From NCBI GenBank assembly GCA_048882505.1, contig JBHLRO010000016.1, positions 30,001-62,000 on the forward strand: a stretch of 32,000 nucleotides of DNA. Reading direction: 5' to 3'. Positions 1 through 28,095 of the stretch are shown here, one piece after another; position 1 is the first letter of the stretch, and every line of letters begins with the position of its first letter. A program made the position numbers and the translations under genes. The notes under the pieces are model-generated. The model did no database searches, was not told where the DNA came from, and worked only from the letters and a program-made list of their open reading frames with translations. Source of the DNA: Candidatus Thorarchaeota archaeon (lineage in GTDB: Archaea; Asgardarchaeota; Heimdallarchaeia; Hodarchaeales; Hodarchaeaceae).

Positions 1-7
1 GAAAGCC

Positions 8-2695
8 TTGGATGTCTATCTGCCAGAGAATGGGATAAAAAAGAGAAAAAGAAAGAACCCAATTTTTAAGAAAGATACACCCACCAAATCAAATAGCGTA
101 AAGGATCTGATAAATCCCCCTCGTCAGAGAAAAAGGTTGGGAAGATTATCAATTGAAGATATTTATTCTGAACTTGAAAATTCTGGAAGATTCTCGGAGA
201 AGGTCCTCAGAAAGATCATGGATTTACTGTTTAAATACAGGTCACATTACGTAAAAAACCAACCCGTATTTTGGGACAAAGTTTTCAAATCTCTAAGAAG
301 TCTTGGTCAACGCACAGAGATTTTGAATATTGAGAGGGACGAAATCGTTGAACTAAGGGCAATAGCTAATGAATTAAGGAAGTTTACAAGTCAATTTTCT
401 AAGCAGACTTGCGATAGAGATGAAATATCTATACAGACAGCTCGTCTTTTCTACGATTTTATTGATGGAAAAATCTCTCTTTTCAGTAGAATATTCAAGT
501 CTGGATCATTATCAGATGAACATCAAGAATCAATGTATAGAGCACTTTGCGCAGAATTAACAGGAAATAAACCAGACAGTATGGTTACAAGGATATTAAA
601 GGATAGATATGAATCTACTCTTCTGATAAGAGAAGGAATTACAATAATCCGTACCCACAAATTCTGTGATACGAAGACTCATCTAGGAATTGTAAGTGAG
701 GTTTTGGATTTAGATGCAAATTATCCCGTCATTTCTGATGATTATGTTCCCCTAAGTAACACGATCCTAAGTCTCGACATTGCCGATTTAAACAGGCTAA
801 TCACTCACATTGGTAAAATTGATTATCTGAAAAGTTTTACTTTACACGTAATAGACGAAACAGGGAATTTTAGTTCATCCACATTGCCTGAGAAATTTAT
901 TGGTAAAATAACCAAACATCTAGGTAAATTGACGGGCTTAAAAGATGAAGAATTATATCAGTGGTTTATCGACCTTTTTGCGGATGAAAGAACTTTTTAT
1001 TTTGATAACTTCGGTGATGCTAATTGGTTTAGGCAAGCTAGAAAATCGAATGAGTTATTAAGGCTCTATACGCAGCTTTATGAGACATTTGTAAAATTTC
1101 ATTACACTGAAACACCAAATAACGATCAAATCTTGATTAAGAAGGTCAGGAATACACTTAATAGATTCTTTGAAAATGCCGAGTCATTCAAACTATTTTC
1201 CTCCAATACCAAAACTCTAAGAGGTATATCTAATGATTACTGGCTTAACTGCCTTAAATCCATCAGCCAAGATGAACTGGGATATATCCTTCATTTTGAT
1301 TTTAAGGAGTTGCAGGAAAGAACTTCTTTAGAGCAAGTAAGGAACGGAAAAAGGGGATTTTTCAACAGATTAAGGTACAAACACACCACACGTAGTGAAA
1401 TTTATCCCGATCAATGGGAGGGTGTCATTTATGATAATATGGGGAAATTGGTAGGTGAATCATACCATAAATCCCAAAAATATGACTTTCGGATAAGAAA
1501 AGAAATCAGGTTCTGGAATAACACATTTCGAGAGAAGATCCTAAATGACCTCAAAAACATGGCTAGAATTAATTTCAAAAGATTTCCACGTTATCTTGAT
1601 AAAAACACGGAATTTGGGAGGTATTTAGTAAACATTTGGCTGGAGGCCGGATATCTAAGACCTGCAGAGTATCTGGAATCTCTCGTTACTCCACAGAATA
1701 ATCCTTTAAACTTATTAAAGGAAAAAAGGGTCAAATTTCGGGTAATTAAAGCTGAAAACATCCTTCTCAATGATTACGTTCTTAAGAATCCTTCATTTGA
1801 GTTAAACCAGTTTGTCCAGAGTTTTAACAATGACTATTTAATCAAGAAGAGTATTCAGAGTGATAGCATTGTCGAAGAAGTTATTGAAAAAGGGCTTCCA
1901 TATAAGTACTTGAGTGCGAGTACAAAAAGGCAAGTTCCAATTCCTAGACTATCGAAACGCCACGGAATTGCCTATGCAAATATCTTTAACGAAACCGAAA
2001 ATGCTGCAGCCATTAGGATTTTTCTAGATCTGCTGATAAACAGTGACGCGGGTAAAAAGGTTATAAAAAGGTTAGGATTTATTTCTCAACGGAATCTTGA
2101 AGAAATTCTAAAGAGAGGAAATAAAACCAAACTTGTAAGTAGTTGGAAACAAGGCGTACAAACTTCTAATGTCAATATTAATCTTGGGGGAATACCTGAT
2201 GGGGTGGTTGCCCTCAAGCAAGGTGAATCCTATTCAAATGAATTCTTTGTAGAATATATAGGGTTGGGAAAAGCTTCTCAAGGGACTTACTCGTTGCGGA
2301 ATACTAGCCTATTTTCCAATCTAATCGCTGACTTACTGCGAGTGGCGTGTAATTCAGCGGGAGGTAAACCAGGTATTGTAGTCTATGGCAGCCTGGATGA
2401 GTTTAATGAAATTGCTTACACTATTTTCTGGTTCAACAATCAGTCCATATCTAGATTAAAAAAAGTGGGTGCCAATTTTGCTGTTGATTTAAACCGTCCT
2501 ATGATCCAAGAAATTATAAATGAACCCCATAGTTCATTATTGGCCCGTTTAAATGAGGTTTTCTTTGATACTTCTACCATAGATTTTGGAGAAGACCTGC
2601 TTAAATTCACAGTTGTACCCCTAAGTCATAGAAATATGTTTGCATTATATTACAGGCTTTGTCAAATTCTACTTGGTCTGCAATCTGATTTTTGA
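8..2695 (+). CDS. Large hypothetical protein (>=895 aa) with a possible C-terminal PD-(D/E)XK nuclease-like motif; frame is open to the left edge, so it may be 5'-partial
   Basis: Long AT-rich ORF. Codons at 2-7 (AAA GCC) are in frame with no stop. Motif GGIPDGVV...FFVEY at about 2186-2257. No family recognised. Confidence 0.75.
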   Translation: MDVYLPENGIKKRKRKNPIFKKDTPTKSNSVKDLINPPRQRKRLGRLSIEDIYSELENSGRFSEKVLRKIMDLLFKYRSHYVKNQPVFWDKVFKSLRSLGQRTEILNIERDEIVELRAIANELRKFTSQFSKQTCDRDEISIQTARLFYDFIDGKISLFSRIFKSGSLSDEHQESMYRALCAELTGNKPDSMVTRILKDRYESTLLIREGITIIRTHKFCDTKTHLGIVSEVLDLDANYPVISDDYVPLSNTILSLDIADLNRLITHIGKIDYLKSFTLHVIDETGNFSSSTLPEKFIGKITKHLGKLTGLKDEELYQWFIDLFADERTFYFDNFGDANWFRQARKSNELLRLYTQLYETFVKFHYTETPNNDQILIKKVRNTLNRFFENAESFKLFSSNTKTLRGISNDYWLNCLKSISQDELGYILHFDFKELQERTSLEQVRNGKRGFFNRLRYKHTTRSEIYPDQWEGVIYDNMGKLVGESYHKSQKYDFRIRKEIRFWNNTFREKILNDLKNMARINFKRFPRYLDKNTEFGRYLVNIWLEAGYLRPAEYLESLVTPQNNPLNLLKEKRVKFRVIKAENILLNDYVLKNPSFELNQFVQSFNNDYLIKKSIQSDSIVEEVIEKGLPYKYLSASTKRQVPIPRLSKRHGIAYANIFNETENAAAIRIFLDLLINSDAGKKVIKRLGFISQRNLEEILKRGNKTKLVSSWKQGVQTSNVNINLGGIPDGVVALKQGESYSNEFFVEYIGLGKASQGTYSLRNTSLFSNLIADLLRVACNSAGGKPGIVVYGSLDEFNEIAYTIFWFNNQSISRLKKVGANFAVDLNRPMIQEIINEPHSSLLARLNEVFFDTSTIDFGEDLLKFTVVPLSHRNMFALYYRLCQILLGLQSDF

Positions 2696-2764
2696 ATTCC
2701 ATGAACGCAAAAAATTTAATGAAAACAAGTCTTCTAACTGCCCCATTCTAAGAAACAAAGATAG

Positions 2765-2962
2765 TGGGCACGGTCGGATTTGAACCGACGATTTCTGTAC
2801 ACCCTGCATTCTGCAAGGGTGACACCAGGTTTCCTCTGTTTTCCAGAACATCATCATGAGGTCAGTAAACCTAGTGGAGTTCATTGGAAGATCTGGAGCC
2901 TAGCGCGATACGTAGCCGTCCTTATTTAGTATAAACAAGGGCGCTAGCTTCGCTACGTGCCC
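2765..2962 (-). tRNA. trnW: tRNA-Trp(CCA) with three introns: D-loop 2912-2943 (32 nt), canonical 37/38 2831-2892 (62 nt), variable loop 2793-2822 (30 nt)
   Basis: Acceptor GGGCACG/CGTGCCC+A; D stem GCGA/TCGC; anticodon stem CTAGG/CCTGG with loop CT-CCA-GA; T arm GTCGG-TTCAAAT-CCGAC. Spliced length is 74 nt. The D-loop intron has a full BHB (helix AGCT/GGCT, bulges AGC/ACG). The other two have relaxed BHBs. Confidence 0.9.
2831..2892 (-). ncRNA. Intron-encoded box C/D guide RNA of pre-tRNA-Trp (predicted Cm34 and Cm39)
   Basis: D' CTGA at 2865-2862, C' ATGATGA at 2857-2851, D-like CAGA at 2838-2835. D' guide CACTAGGTTT pairs with AAACCTGGTG, putting D+5 on C39. D guide TCTGGA pairs with TCCAGA, putting D+5 on C34. 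This is the layout known from euryarchaeal tRNA-Trp introns. Confidence 0.8.
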
Positions 2963-3066
2963 GTTAAATCAAGCAACATGTATTATTCTTCGAAGAAAGA
3001 GGAAAGGGATTGATGTTAAGAAATTTTTGTGGATTCTTCCGAAACGTACTTTACACATGCAAGGAA

Positions 3067-3140
3067 ATTGGATCAGCCTAGCGCGATACATACCCGAACC
3101 CGCTGTACGCGAGCGAGTCCTCTAGCTTCGCTACGTGCCC
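3067..3140 (-). pseudogene. Truncated 5' copy of tRNA-Trp with its own 32-nt D-loop intron (3090-3121) and the anticodon deleted
   Basis: Exon segments GGGCACGTAGCGAAGCTAG and GTATCGCGCTAGGCT are identical to trnW. They are followed by GATCCAAT instead of CCAGATCTTCCAAT. There is no T arm or 3' acceptor strand before trnW begins. Confidence 0.8.
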
Positions 3141-3172
3141 GAGTATAGCAGTTAACTGTGCCTTATGTCATG

Positions 3173-3928
3173 TTAAAAAAAGGCTTCTTGGCAGGTTATT
3201 TCCCGGAAGTTCAAGACTGAATTTCGTGGAACAGGATAGATATGATTGAAGAGATCAAAACAGCGCGAAACAGAGCATAGGATTGCCGAATCATGAGACA
3301 AAGTTATTCCTTTAGTCTTTTGTTTTAAAAGCGAATCGACCGACTTGGTCACCTTGCAAATTCCATCCATACCTATTTTGGCCATCACATTACGCACAAT
3401 AGTAGCATGGGTCTTACTATGACTTCTCTGTCTATCCAATAAAATTACTACTCTGAGGGGTTGAAAAGGCAGAAGACCCAAAAGGAAGGATTCAATGAAT
3501 CTCTCTTCAATCTGGAGATTTTTCTTTGAATGGAGGGATGAAAAAATGTCGCGAAGAAGATTATCTCGACACAATATTAGAGGGTCCTTGTTAGCAAGAG
3601 AATAATAAGTAGACAATTGATTATAGCCATCCACATAAAGAATGTTATCTCTGAGGTCGTCAGGGTCACGGATTAGTTTCCTTTCAATCTCTTGAACTTC
3701 CAATAAAGGAAGAGCCGCGCGACTTAGGATATTCCGATATACTTGATCCAAATTATGGTGATTGGCTACGAACGTTAGGGCGCTGGTTTTCGGATATCCG
3801 CGATCAAGACAGTATACCAGATCGCAATACGGGTTAAGCAACCGTTCAAAAGCCGTCTTTAGAAAGATGGTTAGATTGTTCACAGGTCGGTATCTTTCCT
3901 TTTTTATAAATGTCTTTAATGAATTCAA
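3173..3928 (-). CDS. DUF434-family protein with a PIN/NYN-like C-terminal part; true start may be GTG at 3883
   Basis: DLVYCLDRGY...ALTFVANHHNL...RNILSR and LYVDGYNQL motifs typical of archaeal DUF434 proteins. Confidence 0.7.
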   Translation of the reverse strand: MNSLKTFIKKERYRPVNNLTIFLKTAFERLLNPYCDLVYCLDRGYPKTSALTFVANHHNLDQVYRNILSRAALPLLEVQEIERKLIRDPDDLRDNILYVDGYNQLSTYYSLANKDPLILCRDNLLRDIFSSLHSKKNLQIEERFIESFLLGLLPFQPLRVVILLDRQRSHSKTHATIVRNVMAKIGMDGICKVTKSVDSLLKQKTKGITLSHDSAILCSVSRCFDLFNHIYPVPRNSVLNFREITCQEAFF

Positions 3929-4481
3929 TCAATTGCTTTGTGGCGAGATAACGATGTGATATGAATTTTTTTTCCTCTCCTAGATCACCGTAGGTTTTGT
4001 TTCCTGGATGGTCCGGAATGAAGATAGGATCATATCCCCAACCGCTCCCAGAGGCATGATGTGCGATCCTACCATTAACCAAACCATTGAACGCACGGAT
4101 CGTTTTATTAAATTTGAAGGCAATAGATGATTGGAAATTCGCTTTCCGATCAATTACTCCCTGCATTAAAGTGAGAATTCCATCTAATCCTAATGTTCTA
4201 TAGGAAAATGATGAAAAAGGCCCAGGAAATCCTTTCAGAGCCCGAATGAACAATCCCGAATCTTCCACAAATACAGGAAAGTTTTCTATATCACCATTGG
4301 TGATTTCGGATAACGATTTGAGGGCAAAGGTAGAAATCTTCTCTAAATCGAAGGATTGAAGCTCTGGAAGTTCAAGATCCAATTGCATTAATTTAAAACT
4401 GGTAAAGCGGCTAAAAAGATGCTTGACTTCGTCAAACTTATGAGAATTCGATGTAACAAATATGATGGTTTCTATAGGCAT
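3846..4481 (-). CDS. rdgB: Non-canonical purine NTP pyrophosphatase (RdgB/HAM1/ITPase)
   Basis: FVTSNSHK, EDSGLFIRALKGFPG, GWGYDPIF and SHR motifs. ATG at 4481 chosen; the ORF track extends to 4505. Confidence 0.93.
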   Translation of the reverse strand: MPIETIIFVTSNSHKFDEVKHLFSRFTSFKLMQLDLELPELQSFDLEKISTFALKSLSEITNGDIENFPVFVEDSGLFIRALKGFPGPFSSFSYRTLGLDGILTLMQGVIDRKANFQSSIAFKFNKTIRAFNGLVNGRIAHHASGSGWGYDPIFIPDHPGNKTYGDLGEEKKFISHRYLATKQLIEFIKDIYKKGKIPTCEQSNHLSKDGF

Positions 4482-28001: not shown

Positions 28002-28095
28002 GGGCCTGTAGCTTAGCCTGGTCAAAGCGTCCGGCTCATATGGTCCAAACACTGGAGAAACCGGATGATCGTGGGTTCAAATCCCCCCAGGCCCA
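28002..28095 (+). tRNA. trnI: tRNA(CAT) with a 19-nt 37/38 intron (28041-28059); probably tRNA-Ile2 (agmatidine) rather than elongator Met
   Basis: Acceptor GGGCCTG/CAGGCCC+A; D stem GCTT/AAGC; anticodon arm TCCGG-CTCATA^A-CCGGA; BHB-like junction. The GGG start matches archaeal Ile tRNAs (elongator Met usually begins GCC). The gene itself is certain; its identity is less so. Confidence 0.85.

What the first reader, a model, noticed from the sequence alone, without database searches (positions are those of the whole stretch)
3067..3140. Upstream tRNA-Trp 5' copy with the anticodon precisely deleted and a different, still-folding intron
Seen: 34 exon nt are identical to trnW. The sequence then reads GGCT---GATC---CAAT against GGCT-CCA-GATC-TTC-CAAT, so CCA is removed exactly. 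The D-loop intron is at the same site and the same length (32 nt) but shares only about 12/32 positions, yet still forms a 9-bp stem (GGACTCGCT/AGCGGGTTC). No 3' half follows. Inferred: unchanged exons with a covarying intron suggest continued selection rather than simple decay. Options are a split-tRNA 5' half with a partner elsewhere, an anticodon-less decoy or leader co-transcribed with trnW, or a gene-converted pseudogene. The G-G mismatch in its BHB helix favours some decay.
Basis: partly seen in the sequence, partly recalled or inferred. Interest (0 to 1): 0.65.

Follow-up and report, generated by a model that had tools for sequence, protein, structure and literature searches.

The report
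Orphaned front piece of tRNA-Trp gene
A 66-base copy of the front part of the tryptophan tRNA gene sits just upstream of the working gene in this Asgard archaeon; it is most likely a dead leftover from foreign DNA repeatedly recombining into this gene, not half of a split tRNA.

Summary
Window 3140->3075 (minus strand) repeats exon 1 (19/19 nt) and the first 15 nt of exon 2 (15/15) of the three-intron tRNA-Trp gene (2962->2765). It has a 32-nt D-loop intron at the same site that matches at only 12/32 positions yet keeps a 9-bp hairpin.

- The "precise CCA deletion" is not above chance; homology simply stops at nt 33.
- The "G-G mismatch" lies in a helix that most functional congener genes also lack.
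- A 3' fragment does exist, 22 kb downstream and outside the window.

That 3' fragment and the working gene share a ~136-nt direct repeat that brackets a 22-kb island. The island is missing from the conserved Ham1-DUF434-trnW-P1 neighbourhood in the congeners where it was recovered (at least 10 show both flanks). So trnW is an insertion site.

Neither fragment holds the anticodon. Trailer and leader are not complementary. No second 5' copy was found in the 20 congeners searched.

Best reading (about 0.7): a recently orphaned, non-functional remnant of a displaced trnW allele. Its intact exons and intron are inherited from a once-working gene, not maintained by present selection. The exact sequence of events is unresolved, because no one-step model fits every feature.

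The parts
3122..3140 (-). Copy of trnW exon 1 (nt 1-19), 19/19 identical
3090..3121 (-). 32-nt D-loop intron allele of the fragment. 12/32 identical to the working gene's intron, with a 9-bp hairpin. Mean 55% identity to congener introns, versus 43% for the working gene's intron.
3075..3089 (-). Copy of the first 15 nt of exon 2 (through nt 33, ending GGCT), 15/15 identical, including the G000-specific anticodon-stem strand CTAGG. Homology to trnW ends here.
3067..3074 (-). Their similarity to the start of the anticodon intron is not above chance.
3141..3172 (-). 32 nt between the DUF434 stop codon (3175-3173) and the fragment. Read by eye, a T/A-rich TATA-like run overlaps the stop about 30-41 nt upstream of the fragment. 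No significant similarity to the upstream regions of congener trnW genes or to the spacer.
   Evidence: sequence reading; promoter activity not tested
2963..3066 (-). 104-nt spacer, the genus-type upstream region of trnW. Homologous to the trnW upstream region of congener G019 (z 8.1).
2765..2962 (-). Working tRNA-Trp(CCA) gene with three introns (D-loop 2943-2912, anticodon loop 2892-2831, variable region 2822-2793). The spliced exons give a valid 74-nt cloverleaf. Left junction of the island.
2748..2883 (-). Left copy of the ~136-nt direct repeat (from inside the anticodon intron to 17 nt past the tRNA 3' end). The right copy is C16:10614-10749, outside the window. 13 mismatches in 136.
1..2695 (+). 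3' part of a 1104-aa ORF (C16:29381-32695), convergent with trnW and ending 70 nt from its 3' end. No Pfam or NCBIfam family. A homologue in congener G017 lies the same way beside tRNA-Pro, inside a 3-kb element flanked by a 19-nt repeat of the tRNA 3' end. Candidate insertion protein of the island.
3173..3928 (-). DUF434/DUF5616 gene, the conserved upstream neighbour of trnW in the genus. Marks the chromosomal side.

Best explanation
The fragment is a non-functional, recently orphaned remnant of a tRNA-Trp gene copy or allele. It was cut off at nt 33, in the anticodon loop, where tRNA-targeting recombinases classically act. The cut happened when foreign DNA carrying another trnW 5' part, or a whole trnW, was recombined into this locus. 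The working gene 104 nt downstream took over. That gene is also the left junction of a 22-kb island whose right junction is a 3' trnW fragment 22 kb away.

Shown: the fragment; the island and its ~136-nt tRNA-derived direct repeats; the absence of the island and of any second 5' copy in the congeners searched; the lack of an anticodon and of a complementary partner.

Inferred: the exons and the folding intron are intact because they were inherited from a gene that worked until recently, not because the fragment is under selection now. The order of events is also inferred. Candidate routes are a 5'-half-type integration followed by loss of the element, homology-facilitated illegitimate recombination with DNA from a related donor, or the island itself splitting the resident gene.
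For: (1) trnW is an insertion site. Ham1-DUF434-trnW-P1-HTH lie within ~3 kb in the congener loci; at least 10 loci show both DUF434 and P1. In G000, 22 kb of mosaic-GC DNA (0.33-0.49; mean 0.389 vs 0.412 in the flanks) separate trnW from P1, bracketed by a ~136-nt repeat of the trnW 3' part.
(2) The ORF next to trnW has a homologue placed the same way beside tRNA-Pro in G017, inside a 3-kb unit flanked by a 19-nt repeat of the tRNA 3' end.
(3) The fragment ends exactly before the anticodon. The review PMC8371274 states that archaeal integrase cuts border the anticodon loop, and that pTN3-like integrases use the 5' half of tRNA genes.
(4) The fragment differs from the working gene at 0/34 exon positions but 20/32 D-intron positions. 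The 3' fragment differs at only 4/30 positions of the third intron (Fisher p 8e-5). So the pieces have different histories, and the 5' piece came from a separately evolving functional allele.
(5) Its intron aligns contiguously with the trnW gene of 14 congeners at 73-79%, and the hairpin obeys the genus-wide covariation.
(6) No second 5' copy in the 20 congeners searched. No partner, no anticodon.
Against: No single-step model fits everything.
- The 104-nt spacer upstream of the working gene is the native-type upstream region (z 8.1 vs G019). The fragment's own 32-nt upstream stretch resembles no congener's (z < 1.3). This is the reverse of what a simple 5'-half integration predicts.
- No element body lies between the fragment and the gene.
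- No tyrosine recombinase is on the contig. The candidate insertion protein shows only weak nuclease-like fold matches (Z <= 4.2).
- Both G000 copies share the lineage-specific CTAGG stem strand, which is odd for alleles whose introns are saturated with change.
- Expression was not tested, and a TATA-like run lies at a plausible distance upstream.
- No reads were available to verify the junction.
Confidence: 0.7

Rival explanations
1. The island itself split the resident gene. The 5' fragment (nt 1-33) and the 3' fragment 22 kb away are the two halves of the former chromosomal trnW. About 22.3 kb of inserted DNA (C16 ~10761-33066) brought its own complete trnW with 104 nt of upstream sequence as a replacement. 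This is a special case of the relic reading, with a more unusual mechanism.
For: The two fragments are nearly complementary: one ends at nt 33 and the other begins a few nt into the anticodon intron. Both look more genus-typical than the working gene: D-intron 55% vs 43% mean identity to congeners, and ancestral states at three sites of the 3' part (by eye). The working gene would then be needed because the only other trnW was destroyed; ARAGORN finds no other tRNA-Trp.
Against: Divergence from the working gene is very unequal: 20/32 in the D intron vs 4/30 in the third intron (p 8e-5). The G017 relative of the element is a classical 3'-end integration with no 5' fragment. The inserted DNA would carry a native-type upstream region, while the supposed resident half lacks one. 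No shared core or target-site duplication is visible at the two junctions.
Confidence: 0.2
2. Local tandem duplication of the 5' part of trnW followed by ordinary decay or gene conversion, with no mobile element involved.
For: The two copies are direct repeats only 178 nt apart. Congeners carry, 60-87 nt upstream of trnW, a stretch resembling the third intron plus the start of exon 4 (23/27 in G007, z 4.5). That hints at older partial duplications at this locus.
Against: The sequences flanking the two copies are not similar (p 0.22). 0/34 exon changes against 20/32 intron changes is incompatible with neutral decay of a duplicate (inference). Exon tracts of 15-19 nt are too short for separate conversion.
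Confidence: 0.08
3. A functional RNA. Either a split-tRNA 5' half joined in trans, or an anticodon-less leader/decoy transcribed from its own TATA-like box or read through into pre-tRNA-Trp.
For: Exons and the intron hairpin are intact. Read by eye, a T/A-rich run lies ~30-41 nt upstream and no long T-run separates the fragment from trnW.
Against: No anticodon in either fragment. Trailer/leader pairing is weaker than random, and no complement longer than 14 nt exists in the genome. Not found a second time in the 20 congeners searched. No Rfam family matches.
Confidence: 0.07
4. Assembly artefact: chimeric joining of two strain variants of the trnW locus in a metagenome-assembled genome.
For: The genome is a draft of 83 contigs with 3.7% estimated contamination. 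Several congener assemblies break inside trnW, which shows the locus is hard to assemble.
Against: The fragment shares only 19- and 15-nt identical stretches with the gene, too short for a k-mer-based false join (inference). Both its flanks are unique sequence within a 94.5-kb contig without Ns nearby.
Confidence: 0.05

Closest known systems
Orphan 5' tRNA halves made by pTN3-like integrases of Thermococcales (attB is the 5' half of a tRNA gene; Cossu et al. 2017, as summarised in PMC8371274)
   Same: A 5' part of a tRNA gene is left upstream while a second 5' part, joined to the 3' part, forms the working gene. The break is near the anticodon loop.
   Different: There the whole element with a tyrosine integrase lies between the two copies, and the restored gene is driven by the integrase promoter. 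Here only 104 nt of native-type upstream sequence lie between them, and no tyrosine recombinase is on the contig.
3'-part tRNA att duplications flanking integrated archaeal elements (SSV/pNOB8/pT26-2 types; 'gene capture', She et al. 2001; Thaumarchaeota iMGE survey; PMC8371274)
   Same: The 22-kb island is bracketed by a direct repeat of the trnW 3' part, and the intact gene sits at one junction next to the candidate insertion gene.
   Different: The repeat is long (~136 nt). It runs through half of a box C/D-type anticodon intron and the whole third intron. The adjacent protein is not a recognisable integrase. The 5' fragment is not one of these repeats.
Split and tri-split tRNA genes (Nanoarchaeum equitans, Caldivirga maquilingensis; recently split tRNAs, PMC3218864)
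   Same: A stand-alone 5' piece of a tRNA gene ending in the anticodon-loop region.
   Different: Split halves jointly encode the whole tRNA and carry GC-rich complementary trailer/leader sequences. Here the anticodon is missing from both pieces and there is no complementarity.
Heavily interrupted tRNA genes of Asgard archaea (bioRxiv 10.64898/2026.10.13.758758)
   Same: Multi-intron genes with D-loop introns that standard annotators miss. trnW here was missed by Rfam and by default ARAGORN.
   Different: In the passages retrieved by my term search of that paper, which reports no general link between introns and mobile elements, nothing describes orphan gene fragments. I did not read the whole text.

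Membership tests
Split tRNA 5' half | 5' and 3' pieces together encode a complete cloverleaf including the anticodon | tested here: not met
   The fragment ends at nt 33. The only other trnW piece (C16:10760->10631) begins inside the anticodon intron. CCA is in neither.
Split tRNA 5' half | Complementary 3' trailer and 5' leader forming a helix next to a bulge-helix-bulge motif | tested here: not met
   Duplex -8.2 kcal/mol vs shuffles -10.3 +/- 2.7. Longest complement anywhere in the genome is 14 nt.
Split tRNA 5' half | Conserved as a separate gene in related genomes | tested here: not met
   In the 20 same-genus genomes searched, the fragment query hits only the resident trnW where it hits at all; no second 5' copy was found. 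These drafts are 70-99% complete, so this is 'not found in those searched'.
tRNA att remnant of an integrative element | Island absent from the same syntenic site in relatives | tested here: met
   DUF434-trnW-P1 are contiguous in the congener loci; at least 10 loci show both flanking genes. 22 kb are inserted in G000.
tRNA att remnant of an integrative element | Direct repeats of part of the tRNA gene at both island ends | tested here: met
   A ~136-nt repeat with 13 mismatches, for the 3' part. The 5' fragment itself is not one of these two repeats.
tRNA att remnant of an integrative element | Site-specific recombinase encoded next to the att site | tested here: inconclusive
   No PF00589 hit on contig C16. 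The adjacent 1104-aa ORF has no family and only weak nuclease-like fold matches. Its G017 homologue sits in a 3-kb unit flanked by a repeat of the tRNA-Pro 3' end.
pTN3-like 5'-half integration | Order: host promoter, orphan 5' half, element body with integrase, element-borne 5' half fused to host 3' part | tested here: not met
   Only 104 nt separate the copies, and they are homologous to the native upstream region of G019 (z 8.1). The orphan's own upstream stretch is not native-like. It could still be a decayed derivative.
Tandem-duplication pseudogene | Flanks duplicated with the gene part, and roughly uniform divergence | tested here: not met
   Flank similarity p 0.22. 0/34 exon differences vs 20/32 intron differences.
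Spliceable archaeal tRNA intron | Intron hairpin and splice-site context conserved | tested here: inconclusive
The hairpin is present and fits genus covariation. Cleavage was not tested.

The most novel reading that the evidence does not exclude
An Asgard mobile element that lacks a tyrosine recombinase and encodes a rare nuclease-like protein (a handful of full-length relatives, about five, among 1.84 billion representative proteins). It inserts into the anticodon loop of the single-copy tRNA-Trp gene and destroys it, while supplying its own complete three-intron trnW with a different D-loop intron allele. That would be element-driven replacement of an essential tRNA gene and its intron, and direct support for the idea that element att regions carry tRNA introns between genomes.
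Probability: 0.15. Interest if true: 0.7.

Novelty: new member of a known kind. Interest (0 to 1): 0.38.

Why it matters
On its own the fragment is a genomic scar. It is still a datable marker showing that a heavily interrupted Asgard tRNA gene serves as an insertion site despite its introns. The island's repeat runs through two of those introns, which bears on the old proposal that tRNA gene disruption protects against integration (Randau and Soll; cited from my own knowledge). It also shows that two very different alleles of one intron, with identical exons, existed in this lineage. That is what the 'attP as intron vector' idea (Sugahara et al. 2012, as cited in PMC8371274) predicts. A practical point: fragments like this, and multi-intron genes missed by ARAGORN and Rfam, can mislead tRNA annotation in Asgard genomes.

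Tried and rejected
- Split tRNA: rejected (no anticodon, no complementarity, no partner).
- Precise anticodon deletion: not above chance.
- G-G mismatch as a sign of decay: that helix is unpaired in most congeners.
- Tandem duplication with its flanks: flank similarity not significant.
- Intron copied from another tRNA gene: neither intron allele occurs elsewhere in the genome.
- A decayed 5' fragment in the long DUF434-trnW spacer of G019 or other congeners: none.
- Target-site duplication or shared core at the two junctions: nothing convincing.
- Possible decayed third-intron/T-arm remnant right after the fragment: borderline only (p 0.057 with lenient gaps).
- Element or trnW copies in viral contigs: only chance hits.
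- Two metagenome pattern scans: 0 hits.
- Genome-collection scan for the 1104-aa family: returned only the G017 locus.
- Word-indexed protein search: found only the query itself.
Not pursued further.
- Tyrosine-recombinase fold for the 1104-aa protein: no such match appeared in Foldseek or VIA-align. Only aa 600-1104 were modelled, so this does not exclude it.

Full report
**1. The observation.** On the minus strand the window holds a tRNA-Trp(CCA) gene at 2962->2765 with three introns. ARAGORN in default mode and Rfam miss it. Joining its four exons gives a 74-nt sequence that ARAGORN folds as tRNA-Trp. The finding lies 104 nt upstream. Positions 3140->3122 equal exon 1 (19/19). Positions 3089->3075 equal the first 15 nt of exon 2, ending GGCT at tRNA nt 33 (15/15). 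Both strings occur only at these two places in the 4.3-Mb assembly. The 32 nt between them sit where the D-loop intron sits, have the same length, match at 12/32 positions and form a 9-bp hairpin. So the core observation is correct and is not chance.

**2. Three details that do not hold.**
- The "exact CCA deletion" rests on a two-gap alignment of the next 8 nt. Against shuffles it is unremarkable (p 0.08-0.33). The simpler description is that homology stops right before the anticodon.
- The "G-G mismatch in the BHB helix" sits in a pairing register that is not conserved. In a 16-sequence alignment (the two G000 copies plus 14 congeners) that pair forms in only 3 sequences, so it says nothing about decay. 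By contrast the intron hairpin is well supported across the genus: 92% of cells paired and 6 of 9 pairs with compensatory changes. Both G000 alleles obey it.
- "No 3' half follows" is true only within the window.

**3. Context outside the window.** The window is C16:30001-62000. The last 26 nt of trnW recur at C16:10631 on the same strand. Reading there shows a 3' fragment of trnW that starts inside the anticodon intron and runs to the 3' end, with similarity continuing 17 nt beyond it. Over 136 aligned nt there are 13 mismatches.
- Flanks: the ribosomal protein P1 gene lies just beyond the 3' fragment. DUF434/DUF5616, Ham1 and S15 genes lie just beyond the 5' fragment.
- Between them lie 22 kb: an AAA_14/DUF4143 ATPase, a TnpB, a helicase, a phosphoesterase, an ABC/FtsX set and several large ORFs without families. 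GC is mosaic, 0.33-0.49.
- In same-genus genomes Ham1-DUF434-trnW-P1-HTH are contiguous within about 3 kb; at least 10 loci show both DUF434 and P1.
- Hence G000 carries a 22-kb island at trnW, bracketed by a long direct repeat of the gene's 3' part. I did not see its Cas1 domain with Pfam or NCBIfam and did not pursue it.

**4. The gene next to trnW.**
- No tyrosine recombinase is on the contig.
- The 1104-aa ORF that ends 70 nt from the trnW 3' end, convergent with it, has a 32%-identical homologue in congener G017, a Promethearchaeota MAG. That homologue also lies convergent, about 100 nt from a tRNA (tRNA-Pro GGG).
- A 19-nt repeat of the tRNA-Pro 3' end lies 3 kb further on. The unit it encloses holds only this ORF and one small ORF of about 50 residues that looked ribbon-helix-helix-like to me by eye (not tested).
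- The family is tiny: a handful of full-length relatives (about five) among 1.84 billion representative proteins, and within the class it was found only in this genus.
- An AlphaFold model of residues 600-1104 is confident (pLDDT 82). It has no significant Foldseek match and only weak VIA-align matches (Z <= 4.2). Those matches recur on restriction-endonuclease-like, Hjc and splicing-endonuclease folds.
- I therefore call it a candidate insertion protein of unknown mechanism. By analogy with G017, the working trnW is the left junction of a 3'-part-type insertion and the 3' fragment is the right junction.

**5. What the 5' fragment is not.**
- It is not a split-tRNA half. Neither fragment contains the anticodon. 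The 39-nt trailer and the 3' fragment's leader pair more weakly than shuffled controls (-8.2 vs -10.3 +/- 2.7 kcal/mol). The genome holds no complement longer than 14 nt.
- It is not a conserved element. In the 20 congeners searched, the query hits only the resident trnW, where it hits at all.
- It is not a duplicate made together with its flanks (p 0.22).
- Neither intron allele has a copy elsewhere in the genome.

**6. What its sequence says about history.**
- Against the working gene the fragment shows 0/34 exon differences and 20/32 D-intron differences. The 3' fragment shows only 4/30 differences in the third intron (Fisher p 8e-5).
- A neutrally decaying copy cannot change 60% of its intron and none of its exons. 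So the two D-intron alleles diverged while both sat in working genes, and the truncation is recent (inference).
- The fragment, intron included, aligns contiguously to the trnW of 14 congeners at 73-79%. Its intron is on average closer to theirs than the working gene's intron is (55% vs 43%). Several congeners align to the working gene only from nt 52 on.
- All three G000 pieces carry the lineage-specific anticodon stem (CTAGG/CCTGG), so all come from this lineage or from something co-evolving with it.
- Together with the break position this points to displacement of one trnW allele by another through recombination with foreign DNA. According to the review PMC8371274, the anticodon loop is the classical overlap region of tRNA-targeting recombinases, and pTN3-like integrases use the 5' half.

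**7. Why the exact route stays open.**
- The 104-nt spacer upstream of the working gene is clearly the genus-type upstream region (z 8.1 against G019; weaker signals against others). The 32 nt between the DUF434 stop codon and the fragment resemble no congener's (z < 1.3). They contain only a T/A-rich, TATA-like run at a plausible distance (my reading of the sequence).
- A simple 5'-half integration predicts the opposite arrangement and an element body between the copies.
- The alternative is that the island split the resident gene and brought a complete replacement. It fits the near-complementary break points, and it fits the more "ancestral" look of both fragments. It does not fit the unequal divergence or the classical layout of the G017 element.
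- Homology-facilitated illegitimate recombination with DNA from a related donor that already carried the island would give the observed order in one step. It still needs an unusual resident upstream region.
- I give the general relic reading 0.7, with the island-split variant at about 0.2 as a special case.

**8. Comparison with known systems and verdict.** tRNA gene pieces flanking integrated elements are long known in archaea, including orphan 5' halves. Asgard tRNA genes are known to be heavily interrupted. This is a new example of that kind, with some unusual trimmings:
- the target is a three-intron gene;
- the att repeat spans a box C/D-type intron (read by eye here, also noted in e1-5416568) and a second intron;
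- there is no recognisable integrase;
- two intron alleles lie side by side.

Interest is moderate.

Noticed in passing
L007 (G005) and L010 (G004), about 185-215 nt into trnW: In two congeners trnW carries a fourth intron of about 30 nt inside the T-loop. The match to G000 trnW stops at nt 184 and the remaining T-stem/acceptor strand follows about 30 nt later.
   Followed up: partly
L011 (G007) -87..-60 upstream of trnW; same place in L009, L012, L006, L015: The conserved upstream region of trnW in congeners contains a same-sense stretch resembling the third intron plus the start of exon 4 (23/27 in G007, z 4.5; an exact 11-mer in several). It may be an older partial-duplication scar at this locus, or a shared processing signal.
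   Followed up: partly
L042 (G017:C230) 990-4106: A 3-kb mini-element: tRNA-Pro(GGG), a convergent 864-aa homologue of the island's 1104-aa ORF, a small ORF of about 50 residues (RHH-like by eye, not tested), then a 19-nt repeat of the tRNA-Pro 3' end. A candidate minimal integrative element with an unclassified insertion protein.
   Followed up: partly
window 1-2695 (+), ORF C16:29381-32695: The C-terminal 500 residues give a confident AlphaFold model (pLDDT 82) with no significant structural neighbour. The weak matches are restriction-endonuclease-like, Hjc and tRNA-splicing-endonuclease folds. The N-terminal ~145 residues also occur as stand-alone 150-250-aa proteins in the genus.
   Followed up: partly
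window 2748-2883 (-) and C16:10614-10749: The island's direct repeat includes the 3' half of the anticodon intron (with the box C'/D-like motifs and the guide aimed at C34, read by eye) and the entire third intron. So the introns are part of the attachment sequence rather than a barrier to it.
   Followed up: partly
G003 (C41/C65), G018 (C1/C5), G012 C284, G020 C145: Four congener assemblies break inside or at the edge of trnW. In G003 and G018 the two contigs overlap by 111 nt within the gene. That suggests population variants or extra partial copies at this locus in other species too.
   Followed up: partly
window 2764-2962 (-): ARAGORN with intron search calls the gene tRNA-Ile(tat) with one long intron. 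Default ARAGORN and Rfam miss it altogether. With intron search, ARAGORN finds only 39 tRNAs in the whole assembly.
   Followed up: yes
window 28002-28095 (+): ARAGORN calls this tRNA-SeC(tca) in default mode but tRNA-Ser(aga) with intron search. A separate SeC call lies at 65699-65815 on an unidentified contig. The identities were not resolved.
   Followed up: no
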